From: Phycisphaerae bacterium
GTDB lineage: Bacteria; Planctomycetota; Phycisphaerae; UBA1845
Length of the DNA stretch: 64,000 bases
Assembly (NCBI GenBank): GCA_963666835.2
Contig: CAXXGO010000006.1
Coordinates: 160,001-224,000 of the forward strand
Direction: 5' to 3'
Under the pieces are notes generated by a model that was not told where the DNA came from, did no database searches, and was given only the letters and a program-made list of their open reading frames with translations. A program made the position numbers and the translations under genes. This document shows, in pieces, positions 37,404-53,738 of this stretch. The stretch's first letter is position 1, and the number at the start of each line of letters is the position of its first letter.

Positions 37404-38600
37404 TCACTGCCCCAGCGAAACGTGCCCTTCGCCGGCCGGGGGGGCCGCGTCCGCCGGCTGCTTTGTCTCCCGCAACTCGTCCCATGCGGATTTCAGCGCC
37501 GTCGATAAGTCCGCGGCGACCTGCGCCCCACGTAACTCCTCGCTCAACCGCTCTACCTCGTCCGCCAGCTCGTCCCGCTGCCGCTCCAACTCGGCCCGCT
37601 CGAGCACCACGGCCACGATTTTGTCCGCCATCACCTCCGCCCGGTTCTCCAAGCGCCGTACGGATTCGCGTTCGTGAGCCAGAGAGTCCTGCAAAACACC
37701 CGTTTCACCGTCATGCCGGGCCTGCAACGCGGCCAACTGCCGATCGTACTCGGCCTGAACCGCCTCCAACTGCCGGTGATAACGCTGCTCGACGACCGCC
37801 AATTCGGCTTGGGCCTTCTCCTCATGATCCCCGCCGCCGCGCATAGCCGCCCGCGCGATTCCCCAGGCAGTCTTCAACGACTCGGTAATCCGGGCGGCGT
37901 GCGTTGTTCGGCGCAGTTTGGCCGCGAGACTCTCGACTTCCGCGGACAGGTAGTCGCGCTCGGCCATCACCCCGGCCATTGCCACCGAACGCTCGGATAG
38001 CTCCCGAGCCAGGTCCATCTCCCGCTGCTCCTGCTCGCTCAGCCGCTCTCGCTCGTGCTCCAACACCCCCTGCAGAGCCGCCGACTCGCCATCGAATCGC
38101 GATTTGACCGAGTTCATCTCCCCGATGTGGCGGACCTCGGCGCTGAGCAAGGCTGCTTCCACCTCCGTCTTCTCTTTAGTCATCTTGCGGGCAGCCTCCG
38201 CCTTCGTCGTGTGATGAAGGCATACCCCGGCGCCGCCCGCGATAATGAGCATGAACGCGACCGCCCAACCGGCGCGCGCCGAGCGTCGAGCTTGGGCCGC
38301 GTCATCTTCCAAACAGATGCGGGCAGCGGACAGGGCTGACACGGTGTCCGAGAACGTCGTTTGAATGGCTGCCAGGGTGTCCGTGTCGTGTTTCTTCTGA
38401 ATGGCTGCGGCCGCACCCACCTCGGCCAGATGTCGGCCAACCTGGGTCACCGTAGCCACAGCCTTGTCCGTGTCCACATCGACGAGGATATTGCGTCCGT
38501 CTCGCCGCGTTCGGAGCAGACCACCCCGTATTCTGCGGCGAATGGTGCGTATTGAACAACCGAGCGCGGCCGCGGCTTCCGTCTGAGTCATCCATGACAT
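37404..38600 (-). CDS. MerR/excisionase-type HTH + TM helix + long coiled-coil protein
   Basis: AGGAGG RBS; WMTQTEAAAALGCSIRTIRRRIRGG; TM AGWAVAFMLIIAGGAGVCL; duplicated coiled-coil units. Confidence 0.8.
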   Translation of the reverse strand: MSWMTQTEAAAALGCSIRTIRRRIRGGLLRTRRDGRNILVDVDTDKAVATVTQVGRHLAEVGAAAAIQKKHDTDTLAAIQTTFSDTVSALSAARICLEDDAAQARRSARAGWAVAFMLIIAGGAGVCLHHTTKAEAARKMTKEKTEVEAALLSAEVRHIGEMNSVKSRFDGESAALQGVLEHERERLSEQEQREMDLARELSERSVAMAGVMAERDYLSAEVESLAAKLRRTTHAARITESLKTAWGIARAAMRGGGDHEEKAQAELAVVEQRYHRQLEAVQAEYDRQLAALQARHDGETGVLQDSLAHERESVRRLENRAEVMADKIVAVVLERAELERQRDELADEVERLSEELRGAQVAADLSTALKSAWDELRETKQPADAAPPAGEGHVSLGQ

Positions 38601-39864
38601 GGGCAGATCCTCCTGGCGTCCGCAGGTCAACAGCGGACACAACGCCGGAGCCGACCGCAGGCGGACACCGGCCAACTTGTCGGCCAAACCCGTGCCGACA
38701 CGTCCGATATCCTAACCGGACACCCGCCGGTTGCCAACATGTTTCTGCGCCGTTCGAAGACTGGCCACGTGCGGCGACGCCACTGCTCAAAACGCCCGGG
38801 TACACCGAGCGCGAACAGCTAGGGTCCGCTCCGCGGACCACATTCTTGGAGACACGGGCGAACGCGAGGTCCGCCCGTTTGATACGGCCCGGCCTGCGGG
38901 ACGGGTGCGGCAGTCAAACGTGTATGATCCGCGTAGCGCAATAGGGCCAACCTTGCCCGGCGGTCATGCGGTGAACCGTTCCGACGTGGGCATGTAGCCA
39001 CGAGTGGAGCGAAGCCGGACTCGTGGGGACGATCGACTCTCCCATAGATGCCGCCCCGAAGGGCCGGAGGAGAGCAGCTTTTGGGGAAGGCTGGAAGCCT
39101 ACGTTGCGAAGTGTCTCGAAGGGCCGGCGGGCCGTTACCGGGATCTTGCGACGGCTACGGCAGGTCTCGTGCCTCGACACTGCCCTACGGGGGATCCGCT
39201 CCGCGGACCACATTTGCCTAAGGATCGGCGGCGCTTGATGGACAACCGGATGAAGACGGTTGCCCGCAGGGGCGGCTTTGGCGACACCCCAAACACCAGC
39301 CCCAGACGGCTGTCCGGTATGTCCGCGCGTGTCCTTTTGATGTCCGGACAGGACGATTCGCTGCTGTCCGGACAGGCGCTGTTGGTAGTGTCCGGACGGA
39401 GAAACGGCTCCTTTGCGCGGCGAATTGTCCCAACGGCGTCCGGGTGGAATCTAGCGTCGACGGTATCGGCATCGCGGCCGTACGCCGACCATGCTGACCG
39501 CCAAGTCCGGTGTCTGTAACATCCCGCCGCTGTGTAGATTATCACTATGTCGTGGTCGTTGGGAGCATTACAGATAGGACAGTTGCCGGCGGGGCTGAGG
39601 GTATCGGAGCACGTGAATGTGTGTCCGGTATGGCTGCTGATATGTCCGGCGGACACGACCATGACGGAATTATATTGCAGGGACGCCGTGTCCGGTTCAA
39701 CCGGCTGCGGCTTTCGGACTGAGGACGGCCCGTCCTAGCGAACGCGGGGGCTTGCTTCGGCCTGCGACGGCGACGGGGCGGCTGACCATTGTGGTTCAAC
39801 CGCCCCATTTCGCCATTCTGGTGGTTGTGGGGTCAGGCAGGCCCTTTCCCGCGGATTCGGTTGT

Positions 39865-40788
39865 TTACGACGCGTCTGTGAACTCCACGCGTACCGCGTA
39901 CTGCCAATAGCCGTACGTCACCCGGTAGCGTGCCCGAACGCCGTAAAGGTACTTCTCGCGGCGGAAGCCCTCTTCGCTGTCGGCGGTCAGTGAGGTGAAC
40001 TCGATCGGCTCTCGATCCTGGAAGATGAACGGCCGAACGACACCGTCGGTCTTGAGCAGATACCACTTGGCCGGGTCACTCAGCCAGGGCAGGGCGATCA
40101 CACGTGCCGCGCCTGCCATGACGTTCGATGTATCCCCGATCAGGGTCGCGTTCAGCGTCTCGAGGGCGGTGAAGTACATCGTCGTCGGCACCACACACAC
40201 CAAACCCGACGCTGAAATCGACATCGCCTCGCCGCGGTCGTCCTTGAGGCCCATCATCTTCGAAATCGCCGTTTTCAGGGCCGCCTTGAACTCCTCAACT
40301 GTCGGATCGGTCGGATCGGCCACCGCGAGTCCGATCCGATTACTCTGCACGCCCGACTCGCCGGACTCGTGGGCGTCGCTGAGGAAACTCACTCCGTCGT
40401 AGCTGTTGAAACCGGCGGTTTCACCGTTGATAAGCAGCGCGGCCGCGAGGTAGTCCTTATGCGAAGCGGCCCGCTCGGCCAATTCCCCGATTCGGATACG
40501 GATCTGCCCGGTCTTGTCGTCGGCGATCTCATCGCGGTCGACCTCGATCGTGGCTTCGTACTTGAGGTTCTCCACCGAGTAGGCCTCGCTTCGCATCCCG
40601 CGGGCCAACCGGCCCGAGCCCCATTCCCGCATGCCGGGCACGGATCCCAACCAGCGGTAGTTCTCACTGTCCGAATTAGACGGAATCCTCGTGGCCAGCT
40701 CCTGATAGTGGGTCGGGGCTTTTCCGAAACGGGCGAAGAACTCGCTGCGGAGCCCCTTGGTAAGCAATCCGGTATTGATAACGGCCAC
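39865..40788 (-). CDS. Mu-like major head (capsid) subunit, gpT family
   Basis: YRWLGSVPGMREW, YEATIEVDRDEIADD, WYLL, PFIFQDRE, YLYGVRARY..YGYWQ; AGGAGG RBS and GTG at 40788. Confidence 0.9.
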   Translation of the reverse strand: MAVINTGLLTKGLRSEFFARFGKAPTHYQELATRIPSNSDSENYRWLGSVPGMREWGSGRLARGMRSEAYSVENLKYEATIEVDRDEIADDKTGQIRIRIGELAERAASHKDYLAAALLINGETAGFNSYDGVSFLSDAHESGESGVQSNRIGLAVADPTDPTVEEFKAALKTAISKMMGLKDDRGEAMSISASGLVCVVPTTMYFTALETLNATLIGDTSNVMAGAARVIALPWLSDPAKWYLLKTDGVVRPFIFQDREPIEFTSLTADSEEGFRREKYLYGVRARYRVTYGYWQYAVRVEFTDAS

Positions 40789-40892
40789 AATGGCCCTCCT
40801 TTCATTCTGTGATTCAACATGTCCCCTGTGCCGGGCTGGAATGAACTTGCCGAAAGGCGGTGCCGGCACCAGTCCGGCTGGCCAACGCACTC

Positions 40893-41657
40893 TCAGACGA
40901 TGTCGACCTGCACGAGGAACGGACCGGGATCGGCGGTCGCCCCGTTAGTTACGGTCAAGGTCAGAATGTCTCCGCTCGCCGCATGCACGCAGGCCAGCGG
41001 ACCGAGTTCGGAAGCCTCGTTGATTGCCGGGAAGACATTGCTCGAATCGAAGGTCTCCGTGACTATCGTGCCGGCGTTTATTGCCAACGTGACCACGCAG
41101 GTACTGCCGCTGCTTATCCCGGTCGCCGTGGTGTCCTGATTGACCGCTCGGGCCGCCACGATCCAGCCCTCGGCGGAGAAAGCGTGAATTGCTCGAGTGG
41201 GCAAGTCGGTTCCCGCGGCGAGATCATCAACCACAAAGGTGATGGTGCGCACGTGCCGGCGATCGGGATCCAGCCGGAGGATGACCTCACCCGCGCTCGA
41301 TACGTCCTGAGCAAGACCCACGAAGCTGTTGCCGGTTGCGTCGAAGGTCAACGTCTCGTCGTCAGAGGCGAAGACCGGACGGCCGGTGTCGGCGGCGGTG
41401 GCTCCGGCCAGGGGATGGCCGAAATCGCCGAGCGTATAGACTCGAACGGTGGTTGCGGCGTCGCCGCCCGCCGTGTTGTCGGCTTCATCATAGGCAAGCC
41501 CGACGAACTTGTCTCCGGCAAGCAAAGGCCGGGCGTATCCGGTCTCGGCGAGCCCGACGAAGGCGCCCTTGTAAATGTGCGCCGCTCCCGCTACCCGAAG
41601 CGTGCGTATTTCCTGATCGATATAATGGTCCACATCCCGGTTTTCAGTGAGTGCCAT
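40893..41657 (-). CDS. Capsid cement/decoration-like protein with an extra C-terminal beta domain
   Basis: IYKGAFVG...GYARP...FVGLA...ADNTAG...GRPVFASDDETL; lies between the protease and capsid genes. Confidence 0.7.
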   Translation of the reverse strand: MALTENRDVDHYIDQEIRTLRVAGAAHIYKGAFVGLAETGYARPLLAGDKFVGLAYDEADNTAGGDAATTVRVYTLGDFGHPLAGATAADTGRPVFASDDETLTFDATGNSFVGLAQDVSSAGEVILRLDPDRRHVRTITFVVDDLAAGTDLPTRAIHAFSAEGWIVAARAVNQDTTATGISSGSTCVVTLAINAGTIVTETFDSSNVFPAINEASELGPLACVHAASGDILTLTVTNGATADPGPFLVQVDIV

Positions 41658-41691
41658 GATGATGCCGTCCTTTCCGGTTGGTTGATTCGAA

Positions 41692-42648
41692 TCAGTTAGC
41701 GTCGGTAGGGCGGGGATGCCCGGCGGCGCGCAGCGCGTCTTGTACGAAGGCCTCTTCGGTGGTCAGCGTCCCCAGATCCGGATTCGCACGAAACTCGGTT
41801 CGAGCGCGCGACGCCACCACGGCCGCCGCCGGGTCTTTCGAAGGCTCACCCACCCGCGGCACGGTCGCCCCGATATTGACCACCACCGGGGCTGTGCGGA
41901 GCCACTCGTCGAACAGCGCCTGATCGCGCCTCGCCAGGCTCTGAGCCCACGCCCGTTGGGCGTCCACGAGCTTACCCGCTTCGGCCGCTTCACGAATGCG
42001 CTGCGCCACCCGCTGGTCGTCACGCTCACGCTGCAGCTCTTCAAGACGTTCGCCGGCCGCGGCGAGCACCGTCTCGACGTCCGCACCACCTTCGAGCCCC
42101 AGCTCGGACCGCAAGGCAGATACGACCGCGTCGCTCACCCCATCAGCCGGCGTCTTGCTCCGATTCACCAGCGCCGGCATGTCTACGATTGCCGGTTTAT
42201 TCGTTAGCGCCGCGGAGTGAATGGCCACGAGCTTCCGGTCCGTCTTGCGGATAATCGCCACCGGCGACAGATAGCGGTATTCGCCGGCGGCCAGCATCTC
42301 CGCCCCGCGCGTAGTCCAGGCAATGTCGGCGAACAGACCGACTTTCGGCACCGCCACCAGCTTCTTGATCCACCCGGCCGCCGGAGCCTTTCCGTTGGGC
42401 GACGAATAACGTCCGCCCAGCGTCTGATGCTCGTAGTCGATCGGCAGATCGGTCCCGTGCTCCTCGAACGCCCGCGCCGCCAGCCGGGCCGACTCATCGT
42501 CCACCACGAAGCTGCCGTTGGCGCTCTCCACCTTCCCCCATGGGGCCAGCAGCACCCGCGTCGGAACGTCGTCTCCCGCCAAAGATGCGGATTTCAGCGC
42601 CCGCATCTCCCGCGCGTCGTCAAATCCCGTTGCCTTGCTTGTCGACAT
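41692..42648 (-). CDS. Mu-like prohead protease/scaffold (gpI family)
   Basis: DLPIDYEHQT, APAAGWI, YRYLSPV, SAALTNKPAI; GAGG RBS and ATG at 42648. Confidence 0.9.
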   Translation of the reverse strand: MSTSKATGFDDAREMRALKSASLAGDDVPTRVLLAPWGKVESANGSFVVDDESARLAARAFEEHGTDLPIDYEHQTLGGRYSSPNGKAPAAGWIKKLVAVPKVGLFADIAWTTRGAEMLAAGEYRYLSPVAIIRKTDRKLVAIHSAALTNKPAIVDMPALVNRSKTPADGVSDAVVSALRSELGLEGGADVETVLAAAGERLEELQRERDDQRVAQRIREAAEAGKLVDAQRAWAQSLARRDQALFDEWLRTAPVVVNIGATVPRVGEPSKDPAAAVVASRARTEFRANPDLGTLTTEEAFVQDALRAAGHPRPTDAN

Positions 42649-42695
42649 GATTACCTCTCTTGGCCATTGGTCTGAAAAACCCCTTTGTCCACATA

Positions 42696-44006
42696 TCAAC
42701 CGGCGCGCTCACTAATCCGCTCAGAGCTGGTCGATCGCCCCGGCACGATCGCGGCGGTTGACCCGGATTGGGGTACGCCCAAGACGTCATGGAGCCACGC
42801 TTGTGGCACTTTCATCCCCAGACGATTCACGGCCGTGTCCAATACTTCGGTGAGTTGCTTGAGATCACGCGGTTGCTTGAGGTTCCGACGGAAATAAGGC
42901 ACGGGCGCGCAGTCCCCGAAGCGCAGCCGAACCAAGGGACCAAGCAAATCACGGCGAATCGTCCGACCCTCTTTGCGGATGTCGCTGGCGAGAATGTCCT
43001 GCCGCACGGTCTCGTGGACTCCGCTGGCCGCCACCGAGCCGCTCTGCCCCGAGATGTCGGTGGTCAGAGTCTGCCCGAGCCAGGTCTTGCTTATCTCCCG
43101 GTTCAGAAACTCGATCAACCGGCGATAGGGTGCTGCCGCCGCTCCGCGGTTCGATTCAAGCACCTGTAACTCGATCGCCTGACTGAACACCCCGGCCGCG
43201 TTGCCCCCCAACGACTCCAACATCTCCAAGAGCTCGCGTTTCTCCTCGGCAGTAGCCGCCGGATCGTGTCGGGCAATGCGAATCGGCATTCCGAACACCT
43301 CGGAGAAGACCAACCAGTCTTTCAACGCCAGGTTCTTCGCCAGGTACACCATGCTCGTTACCCGCAACAAACCACCACGCTGCGGATGACCCGATACGCT
43401 GTGCGGCGTGTGAATAATGAACTTGTTGGGGGGCGGATTGATCCCCTCGTCCTCGTTTTGGGCGGTGAGGATCCGCGGTCGGTCGAACGAATCGAGAGTG
43501 ATCCGGGTGAACTCCACCGGTACGATCTGCGCCAGACTCAACGCCCCGTCGGCGATCTCCCAGACCAACTCCGCTATCGCGATGTTCCGGCCCAACGCCA
43601 GCGCCAAGTGCTGCAAGACTTCGTCAAAAGTCTCCAATCGGCCAAGCACCTCCCGGCAATAAGCGGCCGCTTCGTCCGCCAGGCCTCGTTCCACCCGGTC
43701 GTCCACCTCGGCCGCACTGACCACCCGCCAATCCAACCCGGTGAGCGCCAGCCGCCGCGTATTGGCGACCGCATACAGATGGGCGTCTTTCTCCTCCATC
43801 TCTTCGAACAACTGCATCGCCGCGCAAAGATCACCGTCGTCCGCCGCACGTAACACGGCCGTGAGCCGCGACGGCGTCAAACCCGCGCTGGGATAATCTC
43901 GAACCGCATCCCGACGATCCGGCATGACTACCCGCCCCGGCCTCGGACGCTTCATCCCCACCGCGCGCCGCGCACTACCCAGCCATCGCCTCCAGTTCAT
44001 TGGCAT
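42696..44006 (-). CDS. Mu-like portal protein (DUF935/gp29 family)
   Basis: GLTPSRL, LFEEMEEKDAHL, KDWLVFSEVFGMPIRI, EISKTWLGQTLTT, VHETVRQDI. Confidence 0.9.
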   Translation of the reverse strand: MPMNWRRWLGSARRAVGMKRPRPGRVVMPDRRDAVRDYPSAGLTPSRLTAVLRAADDGDLCAAMQLFEEMEEKDAHLYAVANTRRLALTGLDWRVVSAAEVDDRVERGLADEAAAYCREVLGRLETFDEVLQHLALALGRNIAIAELVWEIADGALSLAQIVPVEFTRITLDSFDRPRILTAQNEDEGINPPPNKFIIHTPHSVSGHPQRGGLLRVTSMVYLAKNLALKDWLVFSEVFGMPIRIARHDPAATAEEKRELLEMLESLGGNAAGVFSQAIELQVLESNRGAAAAPYRRLIEFLNREISKTWLGQTLTTDISGQSGSVAASGVHETVRQDILASDIRKEGRTIRRDLLGPLVRLRFGDCAPVPYFRRNLKQPRDLKQLTEVLDTAVNRLGMKVPQAWLHDVLGVPQSGSTAAIVPGRSTSSERISERAG

Positions 44007-44197
44007 ACCCTCCCCGTGTTCATAGCCGCACTTATCCCCTTTGAGAATCAGGCCCGTTGGGGGCACTCCCCCCAACAGCAAAGACCGTCCAGCCACTTCC
44101 CCGCACCAACAACGGCCGCCCAACGCCCTTCCCCTCGCAACACTAAACGTCGCTCAGCGCACCGGTCCTAACCTCTGCAGGCTGCCATGCGGCAACG

Positions 44198-44305
44198 CGT
44201 CCCGAAGGGACATAAGGCATGTAGCCACGGGTGGAGCGAAGCGGAACCTGTGGGGGCGATCGCACACGTGTTCCCGTCCCGAAGGGCCGGCGGACGGTTG
44301 CCGGA
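44198..44305. repeat. Host REP/MITE-like copy between terL and the portal gene
   Basis: GTCCCGAAGGGAC...GTAGCCACGGGTGGAGCGAAGCGGAACC...CCCGTCCCGAAGGGCCGGCGGAC, as at ~35960..36060. Confidence 0.8.
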
Positions 44306-44361
44306 ATTGCGCGACGGCCTGAATGGACCCAAACTACGGACGGCAATTGACCTTGGGGGTT

Positions 44362-45717
44362 TCACCACGCGCCCTTTCGCGCAAACTGCAACGGGCCGAC
44401 GTTCATGACCTCGGCCTTGCCCGTGCTGCTGCGGGCGGCGTAGACCGCCAGAGCCGCCGCCCAGAACCGATCGGCATGGCTACCCTCCACGCGCGGTGCG
44501 GAAAGCCGTAAGTGCCCCGCACTTGTCACGGCACGTTGTACGGCGTGCCAGTCATTGCGAATGCGCTCATCATCCGGAATCCGGATCTGCCTTGCCTCGA
44601 CCGCAATCCGCAACCCGCCCGCGATCTGTGATTTGAGCGCCGGCGTGAATGTGACCGGTTCGACCCGATGCCCCCCGAACCGCTCGACGAGTTGCTCGGA
44701 CAGTTGCATGCCGAGTCCGCCCGCATCGATCGCGCAGCGGCGCACGGTCGGCAGCGCCATCAGAGTACTGAGCACCTCGAACTGCCGCGTGAACGAGGTG
44801 TTGGCCAGCTCGACGACCGCCACCGTTCGCCACACCGACCCTTCACTAGCCAGGACCCACGCCGCCGTCAGATCGCGCACCCGCCCGACGTCTACCCCCA
44901 CGAACAGCTCACGCGTTTCGCACGCCAGAGGCTCCACTTCGCAATGGCACACCAACGCGTCGTCCACGCAATCGGTTATCTGCTCATAGGTGAGAAACGC
45001 GGTCGACTCATCGATGAACTCGCAAAGAAACTCCTGCCGAAAGAGGGTCTCGTCGCCCATAGCCCGCCGCATCTGCTCCACGTCCACATCTAACCCATAG
45101 GCCACCGCGTCCGGCAGCGTCAACAAGCTGGTGGTGAACCGCGGATTGTCACGCACCTGGCAGAACATGTTGCCGCAGCCCTTGGGCGTGGACGCCACGT
45201 CCAGCTCGCCGTCACCGCGAAGAAGCGTCGGGAACATCGCCGCCCAGATCTCGCGATCGAAGTCGTGCATCGCGAATTCGTCGAGCAGAACATCACCGGT
45301 GAAACCCCGTGCCGTCTGCGGGTTGGCCGGGAGCCCGATGACCCGGACCCCGCCCGGCAGGACGATCTCGAGCTGCTTGACGCTGAGCCCTTTGAAAAAG
45401 CGATCGTCGTAATAGTCCGTCGCAATCTGCAGAGCCCGGCAATGCTGGCGAGCCTTGGCCATCAGCTCCCGACTCTGCCGCTCACCGGCCGAGAGGAACA
45501 CCTGCGTTCGCCGCCGAGATAGTCCGCGGAGGATCCGGCGTAGTGATTTGGTGAAGCTCTTACCCGTCTGCCGCGCCCAGCAGTTCCAACGAAACCGGGC
45601 GTCACTTTCCACGTCTTCACGCTGGTACGGCAGCAGTGGGACAATCGCCCGGGTTTGCGCCGGTTGCCGAACCCGCGCGTTTCCGAGATGACGTTGCGCT
45701 GATAGTAACGTGCCCAT
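44362..45717 (-). CDS. Mu-like terminase large subunit (gp28 family)
   Basis: LLPYQ, ARQTGKS (Walker A), LLDEFA (Walker B), ASTPKG, nuclease motifs GVDVGR...IDAGGLG...HADRFWA. Confidence 0.92.
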   Translation of the reverse strand: MGTLLSAQRHLGNARVRQPAQTRAIVPLLPYQREDVESDARFRWNCWARQTGKSFTKSLRRILRGLSRRRTQVFLSAGERQSRELMAKARQHCRALQIATDYYDDRFFKGLSVKQLEIVLPGGVRVIGLPANPQTARGFTGDVLLDEFAMHDFDREIWAAMFPTLLRGDGELDVASTPKGCGNMFCQVRDNPRFTTSLLTLPDAVAYGLDVDVEQMRRAMGDETLFRQEFLCEFIDESTAFLTYEQITDCVDDALVCHCEVEPLACETRELFVGVDVGRVRDLTAAWVLASEGSVWRTVAVVELANTSFTRQFEVLSTLMALPTVRRCAIDAGGLGMQLSEQLVERFGGHRVEPVTFTPALKSQIAGGLRIAVEARQIRIPDDERIRNDWHAVQRAVTSAGHLRLSAPRVEGSHADRFWAAALAVYAARSSTGKAEVMNVGPLQFARKGAW

Positions 45718-46153
45718 GCGAGTGCATTACCGGTGTCGGACATTGCAGCCGGCCCTCGCGTCGGCATTCTCTCTGCCCGCATAGAACATGCCCCAACAAC
45801 GCATCACCTGAACGCCGGATTAACCTCGCCCCACCGATCGCCCGGGTGCCCCATCCGTCGCCCCAGGCGAAGGGTGGGGGATGGACCCGCAGCTTGATGT
45901 CTCACGTGACTGCCAAGCAAACTCCGTCAGGCAGGGTGGCCCATGTTCTTTTGAATCTAGCGCGGGTGCCCCGTCCTTCGTCTCCGGCGAAGGGTGGGGG
46001 ACGGACCCGCAGCTCGATGTCTCGAACGACGGTCAAGCAAGCCTCCCACCACCGGATGTCCCGCAATAGTTGAAAGCAAGGTGCGACACGTTGTATAATG
46101 TCCGCATCAAACAGGTCATTGCAGTGGGTCAGAATGGAAAGGAGTATAGGTCA

Positions 46154-46480
46154 ATGAGTGATTCTCTTCCCCCTATGAGCGCCCCGTCAATACCGCAGCC
46201 CCCTCAGCCAACCCAACCCGATGGTAAAGCCGTCGCGGCTCTCGTGCTCGGCTTGTGCAGTATGTTCCTGTGGCTGTGTCCTTTGATTGGGGTGATCGTA
46301 GCAATCAACGGTTTCGTTCTTGGTATCATTTCCCGCGAACGCCAGCGCAGCAAGATGGCCATGGCCGGGATCATCCTCAGCCTGATTGGCGGCATAGCAA
46401 GCGTACTCAATATGATCATAGGCGCGTATCTCGGCGCTACGGGTCAGCATCCTGTGATAAACGCGATGCAGCAGGGGTAG
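46154..46480 (+). CDS. DUF4190-like small membrane protein
   Basis: Pro-rich N-terminus, GKAVAALVLG...LGII...MAMAGIILS; AAGGAG RBS. Confidence 0.8.
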   Translation: MSDSLPPMSAPSIPQPPQPTQPDGKAVAALVLGLCSMFLWLCPLIGVIVAINGFVLGIISRERQRSKMAMAGIILSLIGGIASVLNMIIGAYLGATGQHPVINAMQQG

Positions 46481-46974
46481 CGCGGGTGCCCCATCCGTCG
46501 CCCCAGGCGAAGGGTGGGGGACGGACCCGCAGCTTGATGTCTCACGTGACTGCCAAGCAAGCCCCGTCAGGCAGGGTGACCCATGTTCTTTTGAATCTAG
46601 CGAATGCCTAGTCCGTGGCACACGCGGGCGATGTGAGGTTGTTTGAACATGGGGTAGCCGATGATAATACCCGTTCGTAGTTGATGGCGAGTTGCAGCGC
46701 GGGTGCCTTATCCGTCGCCCCAGGCGATGAGTCTCGCTGCTCTACACATCATCCACCGCATTCACTGATTGCAGCCGTTCGGTCTTCGATCTCGATTCTC
46801 CAGCCCGAAGGGCTTGGATGAAGTAGACGGGGGCAAGTCCGCCATCGGCGGACGCCGCCCCCGGACCCGCTCCCCCCCCGTACCTGACCCCGCAGGGGGT
46901 CAAACAGCGCGGTGAATGTGCTTCGCCATTGACTTTTGACGCATTGTCAAAGAGCTCGGGCAGCCGAAACGAAC

Positions 46975-47200
46975 TCGCGGTTCATCGACGCCGTTTCTTT
47001 CACCCTGTCAGGGTGATTGGGGTCCTTGTGACTCCACCGAGGGCGGCGGCCGCTACGCGGCCTTGCCCCCGTCTACTATCTTGTAGGCTTTCAGCCTGAA
47101 AAAGGGGCTAGCTTGCAGCTTGTCAGGCTGGGGAATGCGTCACCGCGGAGTTAGACGGATACGCTCCGCTCCCCCGGCAAAGATGTGTAGAACAACGAGG
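46975..47200. repeat. ~225-bp dispersed repeat
   Basis: Inverted copy at ~56728..56953. Confidence 0.8.
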
Positions 47201-47755
47201 GCGAAGGGGCGCGGGTGCCCCGTCCTTCGCCCCAGGCGAAGGGTGGCGGACGGACCCGCAGCTCGATGTCTCGAACAACTGCCAAGCAAGCCCCGTCAGG
47301 CAGGGTGACCCATGTTCTTCTGAATCTAGCGAATGCCTAGTCCGTGGCACACGCGTGCGATGTCATGTAAACGGATACGTGGTGGACCCGACGAACGCGG
47401 CCGCAGTGATGGAGAAGGTGACGGGTAACTCGGCCGTCGGCGTAGTCCTTGGCGGAACCGGCCCATAGGGTGACTCATCGAGGCACAAGATCTTCCCAAA
47501 CAGGTGGCATCGTTAGCGTCAATTGCCACGGCGAGGAACCCGGTCAAACCCAGTGATTCCGTGTCCGCCCAGCCGTTTTTGCTGGTTTCCCTGTCTCGGT
47601 TGCGTTACAATGGGGGACATCGCATGTGGGAGGTTGGGACTGCGCGCCCCGGCGGGTCCGACGGCAGAATCGCCCGTAAGCACCATCGGTCTCGGGACAG
47701 CCGAAGAGTCGGTTTCTTGGGTGACGCGTCGCGAATCGACTGCAGGAGGGTATGG

Positions 47756-50289: not shown

Positions 50290-50368
50290 GTTATACTCCC
50301 TGTGTCCGTCTGGTTCAGGTTATCGGGTTATCGTAAACGCCGCTTGAGAGCCCTTTGCGCGGAGATTG

Positions 50369-51001
50369 ATGCCCTTGCCGCTGCCCACTGAGACTGCCGT
50401 AGGGGGAATCGTGTTGTGCGGCGGCTGGAGCCGGCGCATGGGCAAGCCCAAGGTCTGGCTGCCGTGCGAAGGCGAATACCTTCTTCAGCGGATGGTTCGG
50501 ATCATTGGGGGCGTTCTCTCACCGGTCGTGGCCGCATGCCACCGCGACCAGTCCCTTCCGCCGCTCCCACCCAACGTGGAACTCGCGTTCGACGAGTACG
50601 AAGATTCCGGCCCTCTTGCGGGCATTTCATCCGGTCTCGATGCAATTGCGCGCTATTGCGATGCGGCATTCGTGTGTGCGTGTGATCACCCGCTGCTCAA
50701 GCCGGGTTTCATTCGGCGGATGGGAGAGCTTCTCGGTGATGCCCCCGGGGCGGTTCCGATGTACGAGGACCGGCTCCACCCGCTTACGGCCATCTACCGC
50801 ACGTCTACCCGGCCGTTGTTGTCGCAGATGCTCCAGGATGGCGAACTGCGAGCCCGGGACTTCGCCAGCAGATGCGGCGCGCGGATCGTTACGCCGGTTG
50901 ATTTGGGTGACGTCGACCCTGAGCTGGAGTCGCTGCGCAACGTCAACGACGCCGAGACGTTTGCTAAGGTCATCCAAGCAGACGGATCACATCTCGCGTA
51001 G
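50369..51001 (+). CDS. mobA: Molybdenum cofactor guanylyltransferase
   Basis: GIVLCGGWSRRMGKPK, GPLAGI, ACDHP, HPLTAIY, LRNVN. Confidence 0.9.
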   Translation: MPLPLPTETAVGGIVLCGGWSRRMGKPKVWLPCEGEYLLQRMVRIIGGVLSPVVAACHRDQSLPPLPPNVELAFDEYEDSGPLAGISSGLDAIARYCDAAFVCACDHPLLKPGFIRRMGELLGDAPGAVPMYEDRLHPLTAIYRTSTRPLLSQMLQDGELRARDFASRCGARIVTPVDLGDVDPELESLRNVNDAETFAKVIQADGSHLA

Positions 51002-51008
51002 GCGAAGC

Positions 51009-52709
51009 TTACTCGGTCGGCTTCGCTGGTGACATCGCCTGCGCCACGCGCTCAATGGCCCGAAGGGGTACGTGAATGTCCACCCGCGCCGGCTGGCCGG
51101 AGAGGCTTGCCGAGACTGCAATGACCGGGCCTGGGCTCAGCGGGCGGATGTTCGGCTTGCCCATCGCCGGGCCCAGCAGCGGCACCATCGCGGCCGGGTC
51201 CAACAACACGATCGTGTTCCATTTCGCGGGAAGTGCTGCCAGGGCCTCCTTCACATAGCGCGACGCGGATAGCGGGCTGATTACCTTGGGCGCGAACGCA
51301 GCCTGGATATCAGTACTGGTACCCGTGCAGTACCGCACCCATTCGGCTCGAATGCCCAAAGCAAAGTGCGTATTCGCTCCAAACATCTCGGCCGCCGGGC
51401 TCCCCGCTTCGGCGGTCATTTCGTATTGCCGTACCGACGTCGATCCGATGGCAACCGGCCCGAGTGCCTTGTAGCTGACACCCTTGAAGTCGTTCAATAT
51501 GGGGTTATCCGCAACGAGGTACTCCCCGGTCAGATCTATAATCCTTTGCGGATTCGGCCCGATGTAATCTCCCAACGCCGTGGCCTGCTCACCCTTCATG
51601 GCCAGCAGGGCCGTGGTTCCCTCAATCGCTCGCAGAAGCTGCCGAGTCATCTCGGCGCTACGCTTCACCGCGGCGTCATCTACGGCCGGTGCCGCATCCG
51701 TGTCGCCCGGGGCGCCCATGGTCGGCGGCGCCTGGAGCACCTTTACGGCCTGGTCGACGAGAAAGTCAAGAAATGGCGACTCGACCCCGGGCATGTGATA
51801 CGCCATGGCTATTAGGTACGGTTGCTCTTCGAACTGGGCAAACGGCGCAATACTCGCGGGCTTCTGGTTCGCCAGGTACTTGCGGATCACCCCGTCCCGA
51901 TACCCCGTTGCGAGTGTGATGTCTGCAGCGTCAGTACCCAGGTCTGCCCTGATGTCGATATACGAGACTTGCTCGACAAACGCCTTCACGGCCTCGAACA
52001 GGCTGGTCAACCCCGCAGTGAGCAAGCTCGGGTCAGCTCCCCATTGTGGGGCCAGCGCCATAGCCATCATCGGGGCCATCTGGGCAGTCTGGGCAACGCT
52101 GGCCACCGCGTCCTGCCGCAACACGCCCATGTTGACGTGCATGAAGACATTACGCTCAGGTAGTCCGTCCGGTCGCAACTTCAGCGTTTCGGCCAAGTTG
52201 CCCTCTCCGGCGGTCGCCCTGCACAGCCCCGCCTCATCTTTGGCGACGAGTGCGTAACCGCCGACGAGTTTCGCGCGTACCTGCTCAGTTGCATCATCAC
52301 CCCGGGGAATCCGCCAGATGTCCCCGTCTTTGGTTGCCCCAGCGATCGCCCCGACCTTTTCGGCAAACCCCGGCACTGCGGCCCAGAACACCATCTTCTC
52401 GTCGGCTTGCCCGTCTTGGATCGTGGCAAGCGCGAACGGCTGTTTGAAGTCGATCAAATCACCGATCCCCAGATCTTCTTTGAGATCCAGTAGCATGGTG
52501 GGCCCATCGCTGTCGGGCTCGACCCGCTTTGCGAAGGCCTTGACGTTCCGATCCAACCGTTCAAGGTCCCTCACGACCACGGTGAACGGTAGATCGGCGG
52601 GAATCAGCCGCAGAAGGCCCGCAGCCGCATCCGGTTCGGCGGATAGCGCCTGCCCGGTCGCGACGCCAACGATGCACAGTAAGGCGAGGAGAGAGAGGCC
52701 GCTTTTCAT
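51009..52709 (-). CDS. Hypothetical exported protein
   Basis: 566 aa, signal peptide, GGAG RBS, co-oriented downstream of parB. Confidence 0.75.
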   Translation of the reverse strand: MKSGLSLLALLCIVGVATGQALSAEPDAAAGLLRLIPADLPFTVVVRDLERLDRNVKAFAKRVEPDSDGPTMLLDLKEDLGIGDLIDFKQPFALATIQDGQADEKMVFWAAVPGFAEKVGAIAGATKDGDIWRIPRGDDATEQVRAKLVGGYALVAKDEAGLCRATAGEGNLAETLKLRPDGLPERNVFMHVNMGVLRQDAVASVAQTAQMAPMMAMALAPQWGADPSLLTAGLTSLFEAVKAFVEQVSYIDIRADLGTDAADITLATGYRDGVIRKYLANQKPASIAPFAQFEEQPYLIAMAYHMPGVESPFLDFLVDQAVKVLQAPPTMGAPGDTDAAPAVDDAAVKRSAEMTRQLLRAIEGTTALLAMKGEQATALGDYIGPNPQRIIDLTGEYLVADNPILNDFKGVSYKALGPVAIGSTSVRQYEMTAEAGSPAAEMFGANTHFALGIRAEWVRYCTGTSTDIQAAFAPKVISPLSASRYVKEALAALPAKWNTIVLLDPAAMVPLLGPAMGKPNIRPLSPGPVIAVSASLSGQPARVDIHVPLRAIERVAQAMSPAKPTE

Positions 52710-52799
52710 CTGATTGCTCCATTGCTTGCGGTATTCGCAGGGCCGCCTGATCGCGTTTGCTTATGGCGTTGGTTCCGTCACTCCGCCCAGCGGTCAGAG

Positions 52800-53738
52800 T
52801 CACTCCATATCCACGCCGAGCAGGTTCGCGATTCGATCGAACTCATCGAGCGAAAAGTACTCGATCGTGATCCGCCCCGTGCCCTTCTTCTTCCCCTCCC
52901 GGAGCGTAACCTTCGTTCTGACAGCAGCTTCGAATCGATTCTGCAGGTCGAGGACGTGAGGTGACCGCGTTTCGGTGCGAGGGGTCGCCGGCGGCGGCCC
53001 CTGTCGGGTCTTCTCCCGGCGGACGATTTCCTCCAACGCTCGCACCGAGAGCTGATTGCTGATGACCGACTCCGCAAGCTGCATCAACCGCATGGGATCG
53101 TCCACGCCCAGGAGACATCGAGCGTGTCCCATGCTCAGCTTGCCGTCTGCCACCCGTCTCTGGACTTCGTCCGGCAGATCCAGCAGCCGCAGGTAGTTGG
53201 CCACGGTAGAGCGATCCTCACCCAGGCGGTGCGCTACCTCCTCGGCCTTTAACCCGAAGGCGTTGCAGAACTGCCGGTACGCGGCCGCCCGGTCTATGGC
53301 GTTCAGATCTTCGCGTTGGATGTTCTCAATCAAGGCCAGTTCGAGCATTTGCTCTTCGCTCGCCTCGCGGACAAGCACCGGGACGCGAGCCATTCCGAGG
53401 GACTTTGCTGCGCGCCAGCGTCGTTCGCCGGCGATTATCTCATATCCGCCTGCGACCGCTCGGACGGCAATCGGCTGAACCATGCCGCTCTGGCGAATAG
53501 ACTGTGCCAGGGACGCTATGTCAGCCCCATCCGCGTTGCTCCGTGGTTGGAACGGATTCGGGATCAGGTCATCGACGTCGAGCATGGTGGCTTTGACCGC
53601 CCCGAGTGCGTCCCCGCTATCGAGGACCTGCTCCGTATGAGGAACGACCACGCCCGGCATTTGCGGGGGCATTCCCGTGGCGAGGTTCGAGACCAGCGAA
53701 TCGAGCCCCCTTCCGAGGCGTCTGGTGATCTTGGGCAT
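52800..53738 (-). CDS. parB: ParB/Spo0J chromosome partition protein
   Basis: RLGRGLDSL, PNPFQPR, IIAGERRWRA, LALIENIQREDLN, HTH, LSMGHAR; GGAGG RBS and ATG at 53738. Confidence 0.95.
   Translation of the reverse strand: MPKITRRLGRGLDSLVSNLATGMPPQMPGVVVPHTEQVLDSGDALGAVKATMLDVDDLIPNPFQPRSNADGADIASLAQSIRQSGMVQPIAVRAVAGGYEIIAGERRWRAAKSLGMARVPVLVREASEEQMLELALIENIQREDLNAIDRAAAYRQFCNAFGLKAEEVAHRLGEDRSTVANYLRLLDLPDEVQRRVADGKLSMGHARCLLGVDDPMRLMQLAESVISNQLSVRALEEIVRREKTRQGPPPATPRTETRSPHVLDLQNRFEAAVRTKVTLREGKKKGTGRITIEYFSLDEFDRIANLLGVDME

What the first reader, a model, noticed from the sequence alone, without database searches (positions are those of the whole stretch)
39865..45717. Intact head-only Mu-like module (TerL, portal, protease, cement, capsid): candidate domesticated capsid or GTA-like system
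Seen: five uninterrupted co-oriented genes with intact ATPase, nuclease and protease motifs, four of them with clear RBSs. Portal and protease are only ~47 bp apart, so the genes found between them in Mu (F and G) are cleanly absent. There is no terS, connector, tail, lysis, transposase or repressor nearby. A host REP sits between terL and portal without breaking either, and the flanks are host-like. Inference: a streamlined module kept by the host that could make tail-less DNA-filled capsids or work with tail genes elsewhere, unlike RcGTA-type clusters, which include tail genes.
Basis: partly seen in the sequence, partly recalled or inferred. Interest (0 to 1): 0.82.

Follow-up and report, generated by a model that had tools for sequence, protein, structure and literature searches.

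The report
Domesticated Mu-type head operon, locally truncated
These five genes are the capsid and DNA-packaging part of an old virus-derived gene set that one order of planctomycete bacteria inherits and keeps under selection, probably to make gene-transfer particles, but the 'head-only' look is a local loss in this one genome, because relatives carry neck and short-tail genes right after it.

Summary
The five intact genes are real: terL, portal, Mu I protease, cement, gpT capsid. They are not a decaying prophage. Orthologous capsids (about 64-73% identical, mostly one per genome) occur across one Phycisphaerae order, follow the RpoB tree (16 of 37 splits shared, null maximum 3) and have dN/dS 0.09-0.27. 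Head-only is not the system's design: 70 of 71 assessable loci continue with the Mu gp36 adaptor, and most then with a terminator-Dit fusion plus hub or a terminator plus tube-fold gene. This genome is the one exception; neighbour order points to an in-place inversion that lost those genes. A shared promoter-like motif led to a second locus (gp25/gp26/probable TerS), present here 37 kb from terL, so the small terminase is probably not missing. Best reading: an independently evolved, multi-locus, Mu-derived GTA-like system, with a truncated copy here. Particles, packaged DNA and expression are untested. This scan noted the same system earlier on other DNA (e1-2108029). No paper on it turned up in my searches.

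The parts
45791..45843 (-). Promoter-like motif before terL: TGATCG-N19/20-CGA[TG]C[AG] inverted repeat, then a CGTT box
   Evidence: Score 26.8/25.1 with matrices trained without this genome; second-best site in the whole genome. Function inferred, not shown.
44362..45717 (-). Large terminase (Mu gp28 type), 451 aa. Its probable small-subunit partner and a gp26-like gene lie outside the window, at G000:C6:243774-242798 (L337), about 19 kb past the window's end
   Evidence: orthologs 55-72% identical in relatives; outside locus:
44200..44330 (.). Host interspersed repeat in the 361-bp terL-portal spacer
   Evidence: 65 blastn hits in the genome
42696..44000 (-). Portal (Mu gp29 type), 434 aa
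   Evidence: PF06074 E 8e-88, phrog_113
42688..42740 (-). Second, weaker copy of the promoter-like motif, overlapping the portal stop, before the protease
   Evidence: Score 12.0 (terL-trained matrix) and 19.7 (retrained); 28 of 70 orthologous loci score 15 or more at this place, 0 of 7 mobile loci
41692..42648 (-). Mu gpI-type prohead protease/scaffold, 318 aa
   Evidence: PF10123 E 1e-52, phrog_328
40893..41657 (-). Capsid cement protein with an extra C-terminal domain (254 aa; 135 aa in the C5 prophage)
   Evidence: phrog_1731 residues 1-126; C-terminal part resembles unnamed viral proteins, Atlas score 0.91
39865..40788 (-). Major capsid protein (Mu gpT type), 307 aa
   Evidence: PF10124, phrog_371
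38601..39864 (.). Spacer with host repeats where adaptor and tail-tip genes stand in relatives; likely inversion/deletion breakpoint
   Evidence: No remnant of J, c6, c9, c11 or c13 (best 1.9 bits); bridged by contigs X1 and X2
37404..38600 (-). HTH-coiled-coil gene; not part of the module, marks the inversion
   Evidence: Found in 7 of 61 genomes; upstream of terL and divergent in G020
50366..53735 (.). mobA-like (+), 566-aa gene (-), parB (-): ancestral downstream neighbours, here upstream and flipped

Best explanation
The block is the head/packaging operon of a multi-locus, vertically inherited, Mu-derived particle system of one Phycisphaerae order that most likely works as a gene transfer agent. 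Shown: gene identities, order-wide presence, tree agreement, purifying selection, a shared upstream motif, a separate gp25-gp26-TerS-like cassette. Inferred: a host dimeric regulator and an alternative sigma factor switch on terL-portal, protease-cement-capsid and the TerS cassette together; portal, protease/scaffold and capsid build a Mu-type prohead; TerS-TerL fill it headful with chromosomal DNA, since no replicating phage genome exists; the gp36 adaptor closes it and carries a very short tail (type A: terminator fused to Dit, then hub and fibre-like genes; type B: terminator, one tube-fold gene, fibre-like genes). In this genome an in-place inversion removed adaptor and tail-tip genes, so its own copy can probably build and fill heads but not seal or deliver them unaided; it is a truncated copy that may be starting to relax.
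For: Capsid match in 50 of 61 genomes, 33 of 37 near-complete ones; 24 of 29 genomes of the order against 7 of 171 elsewhere in the class. Five-gene tree vs RpoB, 40 taxa: 16 of 37 splits shared (shuffle mean 0.26, max 3), 14 of 16 strong RpoB splits recovered; the type B tail cassette maps to one RpoB clade. dN/dS 0.09-0.27 in 16 of 16 close pairs. No close viral relative: 0 confirmed in IMG/VR, best phage record about 34-37%. terL-portal sits apart from the capsid genes in several genomes. c5 model = Mu terminator (Z 13.8, 9khy) + Dit (Z 10.7, 2x8k); c9 model = tail-tube fold (Z up to 10.1). Motif found independently before the protease (28 of 70 vs 0 of 7 mobile) and before the TerS cassette (11 of 27 sense vs 1 of 27 antisense). 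TerS candidate aligns end to end with a gene lying between gp26 and terL in a phage-type cassette (HHalign 85%, E 6e-6), which matches PF11985 over its length (E 0.012). Inversion: 12 of 37 clade-B loci show mobA/566-aa/parB within the fetched DNA, all 12 downstream; here upstream and flipped.
Against: No particle, packaged DNA, transfer or expression evidence. No tape measure gene was found in the orthologous loci, so DNA delivery through such a stub is unproven; the models used for tape measure, G and TerS were built from 1-3 sequences and are insensitive (the tube model missed c9). No peptidoglycan hydrolase was identified. The TerS assignment rests on sub-threshold matches (phrog_426 in 4 of 114 members), and the cassette co-occurs imperfectly with the capsid (36 both, 12 capsid only, 6 cassette only, 6 neither). 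The one strongly supported conflict between the trees involves this genome. Trees are FastTree with a single host marker. The motif occurs 7-43 times in five genomes, so it is not specific to this system. Against 'relaxing': all catalytic motifs are intact, substitutions are mostly conservative, and distance ratios are ordinary (1.82; range 1.54-2.43).
Confidence: 0.55

Rival explanations
1. In this lineage the head-only state is itself kept by selection: TerS, gp26, TerL, portal, protease, cement and capsid make tail-less heads (DNA stores, decoys, or heads completed by the adaptor and tail of the C5 Mu-like prophage).
For: What remains is exactly the packaging and head set at two loci, while adaptor, tail-tip, gp25-like and lipoprotein genes are all not found outside the prophage. 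ORFs, motifs and the terL promoter are intact. The C5 prophage has J, K, tube, tape measure and hub. Tail-less capsids that borrow tails exist in cf-PICIs (10.1101/2025.02.11.637232, passages).
Against: One of 71 loci. cf-PICIs keep adaptor and connector, which set tail choice; this copy has neither. Its portal is 38% identical to the prophage portal. It deviates more than most at conserved columns (6.5%, rank 31 of 34; cement 15 of 96, capsid 10 of 152). Time since the loss is unknown.
Confidence: 0.2
2. The order-wide system is domesticated but does not transfer genes: particles act as adhesins, phage decoys, killers, or as helpers for or interference with Mu-like satellites.
For: Stub tail without tape measure; cement with an added surface domain; family f6 loci have no terL beside the portal and no close terL in 3 of 3 genomes; MuA/MuB elements with only capsid/cement/protease occur in the same genomes.
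Against: TerL ATPase and nuclease motifs are kept in 47-50 of 50 orthologs; a TerS-like gene is kept, and lacks its N-terminal domain in 49 of 109 homologs, the change proposed for non-specific packaging in RcGTA (PMC6854486, passages).
Confidence: 0.2
3. An ordinary decayed Mu-like prophage.
For: All genes are Mu-type; the genome holds a real Mu-like prophage (C5) and a remnant (C6:1.57 Mb).
Against: Order-wide near single-copy presence, tree agreement, dN/dS 0.09-0.27, conserved neighbourhood near parB, and closer kinship to orthologs in other genera (about 70%) than to the resident prophage (50%).
Confidence: 0.05

Closest known systems
Gene transfer agents (RcGTA, CcGTA, BaGTA, VSH-1, Dd1, VTA)
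   Same: Chromosomal packaging and structural genes without replication or integration genes; vertical inheritance; several loci; shared control motif; small terminase often without its N-terminal domain (criteria from PMC11841831 section 2 and passages, PMC6854486 passages).
   Different: Mu-type (gpT/gpI/gp29/gp36) ancestry, not HK97-type as I recall for RcGTA; Planctomycetota host; no tape measure found; terminator-Dit fusion; this genome lacks adaptor and tail; this genome's TerS keeps its N-terminal domain; gene transfer untested.
Mu-like transposable siphophages (D3112/JBD, Mushu; resident prophage G000:C5)
   Same: Gene order gp25-gp26-TerS / TerL-portal-I-cement-T-J-K-Dit-hub and homologous proteins.
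   Different: No MuA/MuB, F, G or tape measure at the locus; TerS cassette moved away; capsid at most about 37% identical to named phages.
Capsid-forming PICIs
   Same: Head and packaging genes without a tail; possible use of foreign tails.
   Different: No integrase or replication genes, no own genome to package, Mu-type not HK97-type head, no adaptor/connector in this genome, vertical not mobile.

Membership tests
Gene transfer agent | Phage-derived packaging and head genes, intact, without replication/integration genes | tested here: met
Gene transfer agent | Vertical inheritance and purifying selection across a clade | tested here: met
   dN/dS not measurable on this genome's own branch (saturated)
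Gene transfer agent | Genes spread over several loci under shared control | tested here: met
   TerS cassette and split terL-portal loci, shared motif; control itself is inferred
Gene transfer agent | Tail structure for DNA delivery | tested here: not met
   In this genome adaptor and tail-tip orthologs are not found (92% complete). In relatives a stub is encoded.
Gene transfer agent | Small terminase lacking the N-terminal DNA-binding domain (proposed hallmark) | tested here: inconclusive
   Lacking in 49 of 109 homologs, present in this genome; TerS identity itself is probable, not certain
Gene transfer agent | Particles hold random host DNA, too short to encode themselves, and transfer it | not testable with these tools
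   Needs particles
Mu-like transposable prophage | MuA/MuB, repressor and element ends flanking the head genes | tested here: not met
   MuA found only at C5; flanks are host genes; repressor and ends judged from ORF content only
Mu-like transposable prophage | F, G, tape measure and tail genes in the late operon | tested here: not met
cf-PICI | Integrase, replication module, adaptor and connector beside the packaging genes | tested here: not met
   criteria from 10.1101/2025.02.11.637232 passages

The most novel reading that the evidence does not exclude
A separate origin of gene transfer agents from a Mu-type phage in Planctomycetota, whose particle has a zero-length tail (terminator fused to Dit, hub directly on the neck, no tape measure), is run by a host promoter class, is shadowed by MuA/MuB capsid-carrying satellites, and in this lineage has been pared to a working tail-less DNA-packaging head.
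Probability: 0.2. Interest if true: 0.92.

Novelty: new variant of a known kind. Interest (0 to 1): 0.74.

Why it matters
How common GTAs are outside Alphaproteobacteria is an open question, because they look like prophage remnants (PMC11841831). This gives a concrete candidate in a distant phylum with testable parts: two or three loci, a predicted promoter, a predicted small terminase. The terminator-Dit fusion predicts a virion with no tail tube, which would bear on how little tail DNA delivery needs. This genome is a natural deletion of the neck and tail. The order appears to be known from metagenome assemblies only in what I retrieved, which limits bench work.

Tried and rejected
The best genome-wide motif hit (C5:108039, before a winged-HTH gene) was rejected as a regulon member: 1 of 30 loci (this genome's own) has the motif. 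The HTH-coiled-coil gene next to the capsid is not a module gene or TerS (7 of 61 genomes), despite a weak phrog_57 hit. PF11985 and PF05065 searches of the genome found nothing, and PF11985 rang in no control either. The C5 prophage TerS as query found 5 of 61 genomes. Profile comparisons among tail-tip genes and the cement C-terminal domain gave nothing; no solved structure matched cement or TerS alignments by sequence. No shared inverted repeat explains the inversion breakpoints and no tail-gene remnant lies on either side. No RNA holder listed. Paper searches (Phycisphaerae with capsid/GTA or prophage/Mu-like) returned 0; searches listed nothing on this system (listings and abstract starts only). 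Subscription journals and supplements were not searched.
Full report
OBSERVATION. The five ORFs are there, uninterrupted, on the minus strand, and match terminase, Mu portal, Mu I protease, a virion cement family and Mu gpT. Catalytic motifs, four RBSs, the 47-bp portal-protease gap, the host repeat between terL and portal and the host-like flanks all check out. Contigs X1 (possibly the source) and X2 (another study code, same year) bridge the capsid end to the next host gene with no differences.

SAME GENOME. G000 (6.0 Mb, 7 contigs, 92% complete) holds two more Mu-type capsids: a full Mu-like prophage at the end of C5 (MuA, gp25, gp26, TerS, TerL, portal, F, I, cement, T, J, G, K, tube, tape measure, Dit, hub by family match or by position; capsid 50% identical) and a remnant at C6:1.57 Mb (60%). 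The window's capsid is closer to copies in other genera (about 70%) than to either.

DISTRIBUTION. The capsid matched 50 of 61 genomes, 33 of 37 near-complete ones, mostly as one copy at 64-73% (36-40% in family f6). In a class-wide sample it matched 24 of 29 genomes of the order and 7 of 171 others. Of 33 loci from 185,579 species genomes, 31 are titled Phycisphaerae or Planctomycetota and 2 'uncultured bacterium'. IMG/VR gave no confirmed close relative; named phages reach 31-37%.

GENE ORDER. Orthologous loci read terL-portal-protease-cement-capsid-J (PF07030), then type A (c5, c8, c7a, c7b, fibre-like genes) or type B (c6, c9, c11, c13). Of 80 loci, 71 have at least 1.5 kb after the capsid; 70 have J, and the exception is this genome. 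Left out of the 80: ten mobile-type or second copies, two unplaced second copies, four loci from other orders, a frameshifted long-read locus, a weak distant hit, a contig-end fragment and apparent duplicates. Because loci with MuA or F were labelled mobile, 'no MuA or F in the 80' is partly by construction; those loci are second, more distant copies in genomes that also hold the ortholog. The AlphaFold model of c5 (pLDDT 86) is a Mu-type tail terminator (residues 3-146, Z 13.8, rmsd 2.9, 130 aligned) fused to a Dit domain (149-278, Z 10.7, rmsd 2.8, 118 aligned). c8 is homologous to the prophage gene in the hub position (the hub label is my inference from position and length). c9 has the tail-tube/Hcp fold (Z 10.1, rmsd 5.7), c6 lies near terminator families (0.94). 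So type A predicts neck and baseplate with no tube between them. HMMs of J, c5-c13 and c18 found nothing in G000 outside the C5 prophage.

INHERITANCE. For 40 genomes the five-gene tree and the RpoB tree share 16 of 37 splits (1000 label shuffles: mean 0.26, max 3); 14 of 16 RpoB splits at 0.95 or more are recovered; 1 of 20 strong module splits conflicts, and it holds G000. Type B maps to one RpoB clade, inside which G000 is nested, so its ancestor had J-c6-c9-c11. Nei-Gojobori dN/dS is 0.09-0.27 in 16 of 16 hand-picked close pairs; G000 has no close partner (pS 0.66, pN 0.23). G000's distance ratio is ordinary, but it deviates more than most at conserved columns, above all in cement and capsid.

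HOW THE HEAD-ONLY STATE AROSE. In 12 of 37 clade-B loci the fetched DNA holds mobA-like, 566-aa or parB genes; in all 12 they lie 2.9-7.3 kb downstream of the capsid in one orientation. In the window they lie upstream of terL, flipped. In G020 the HTH-coiled-coil gene is upstream of terL and divergent; here it is downstream and co-directional. Both ends fit an in-place inversion of the five genes with loss of J onward (inference). No remnant or shared inverted repeat marks the breakpoints.

PROMOTER AND SECOND LOCUS. Upstream of terL lies TGATCG-N19/20-CGA[TG]C[AG]-N6-[AG]CGTT (19 of 48 loci above the shuffle maximum, training sites included, one artefact row dropped). The terL-trained matrix finds it again before the protease in 28 of 70 loci and 0 of 7 mobile loci, which fits the point at which loci split. 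An exact pattern search hit 30 of 61 family genomes (reversed control: 1 match; G000 has no exact match); of 30 first-match loci 8 precede terL or protease. Three matches precede a cassette [lipoprotein]-gp25-like-gp26-like-g27, the order that precedes terL in Mu-like phages. The gp26-like gene matched 44 of 61 genomes; in the 30 best loci 25 have g27, 28 gp25, none terL or MuA within 1.5 kb; the motif scores 15 or more in 11 of 27 sense and 1 of 27 antisense flanks. g27 aligns end to end with a gene lying between gp26 and terL in a phage-type cassette (85%, E 6e-6) that matches Mu gp27 weakly over its whole length; terminase small subunit is the commonest PHROG among 114 members, but only 4. 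I call it a probable TerS. Its N-terminal domain is missing in 49 of 109 homologs, like RcGTA gp1 (PMC6854486, passages). G000 has gp26 and g27 at C6:243774-242798, outside the window, with a weak motif (13.7), keeps the N-terminal domain, and lacks gp25 and the lipoprotein there.

MECHANISM. Inferred from the known roles of the families: joint induction, Mu-type prohead assembly, headful packaging of chromosomal DNA, closure by J, a stub tail, lysis by genes not yet identified. For G000, heads without an adaptor would be expected to leak DNA and not to attach a tail (my knowledge of tailed-phage assembly), unless the C5 prophage's J fits a portal only 38% alike. I put 0.9 on domestication of the system, about 0.6 on gene transfer as its function, and 0.2-0.3 on the head-only copy being kept for its own use.

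LITERATURE AND EARLIER NOTES. Read: PMC11841831 (section 2 and passages), PMC6854486, PMC12946183 and 10.1101/2025.02.11.637232 (passages). Searches showed no description of this system; subscription papers and supplements were not covered. The scan noted the same system in another genome (e1-2108029); I had the distribution and tree before seeing it. It should not be filed as a GTA until particles are shown, and this genome's copy fails the tail criterion; the order-wide system behaves like one on the inheritance, selection and gene-content tests that I could run.

Noticed in passing
G000:C6:1568981-1574994 (L003); L069, L071, L073, L074, L075, L080: Small elements with a conserved 165-213 aa gene before a Mu-type capsid, often cement, protease and a tape-measure-like gene, and in four cases MuA/MuB, without portal or terminase: possible transposable capsid-carrying satellites. 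The capsid of L069 nests inside the domesticated clade B (weak support).
   Followed up: partly
G008, G251, G252, G261, G272: The promoter-like motif occurs 7-43 times in these genomes, near-identical in G252, mostly before unrelated genes where I looked: an expanded regulon or a repeat derived from it.
   Followed up: partly
G000:C5 about 278000-308221 (L001, L002): Apparently complete Mu-like siphovirus-type prophage cut by the contig end inside MuA.
   Followed up: partly
L076, L077, L078, L157-L159 (family f6): Diverged version: portal, GNAT-like gene, protease, cement, capsid, J, then in L077 and L078 a lipoprotein and a small two-helix holin-like gene (labels by eye); no terL beside it, and G058 and G031 hold about ten distant terL-like copies.
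   Followed up: no
G000:C5:108449-108799 (L196:5450-5800): Conserved 117-aa winged-HTH protein, in 33 of 36 family genomes, two paralog groups; no link to the module shown.
   Followed up: partly
window 45839-47368: Three to four copies of a 160-nt repeat around a DUF4190 gene, touching the terL motif.
   Followed up: no
window 39300-39720: Cluster of TGTCCGG/GTCCGGAC-type short repeats and palindromes in the spacer after the capsid.
   Followed up: no
L052, L053, L056, L062, L063, L145-L147, L149: Type A loci of families f2 and f3 and G052 lack the hub gene or stop after the terminator-Dit gene: repeated shortening of the tail tip.
   Followed up: no
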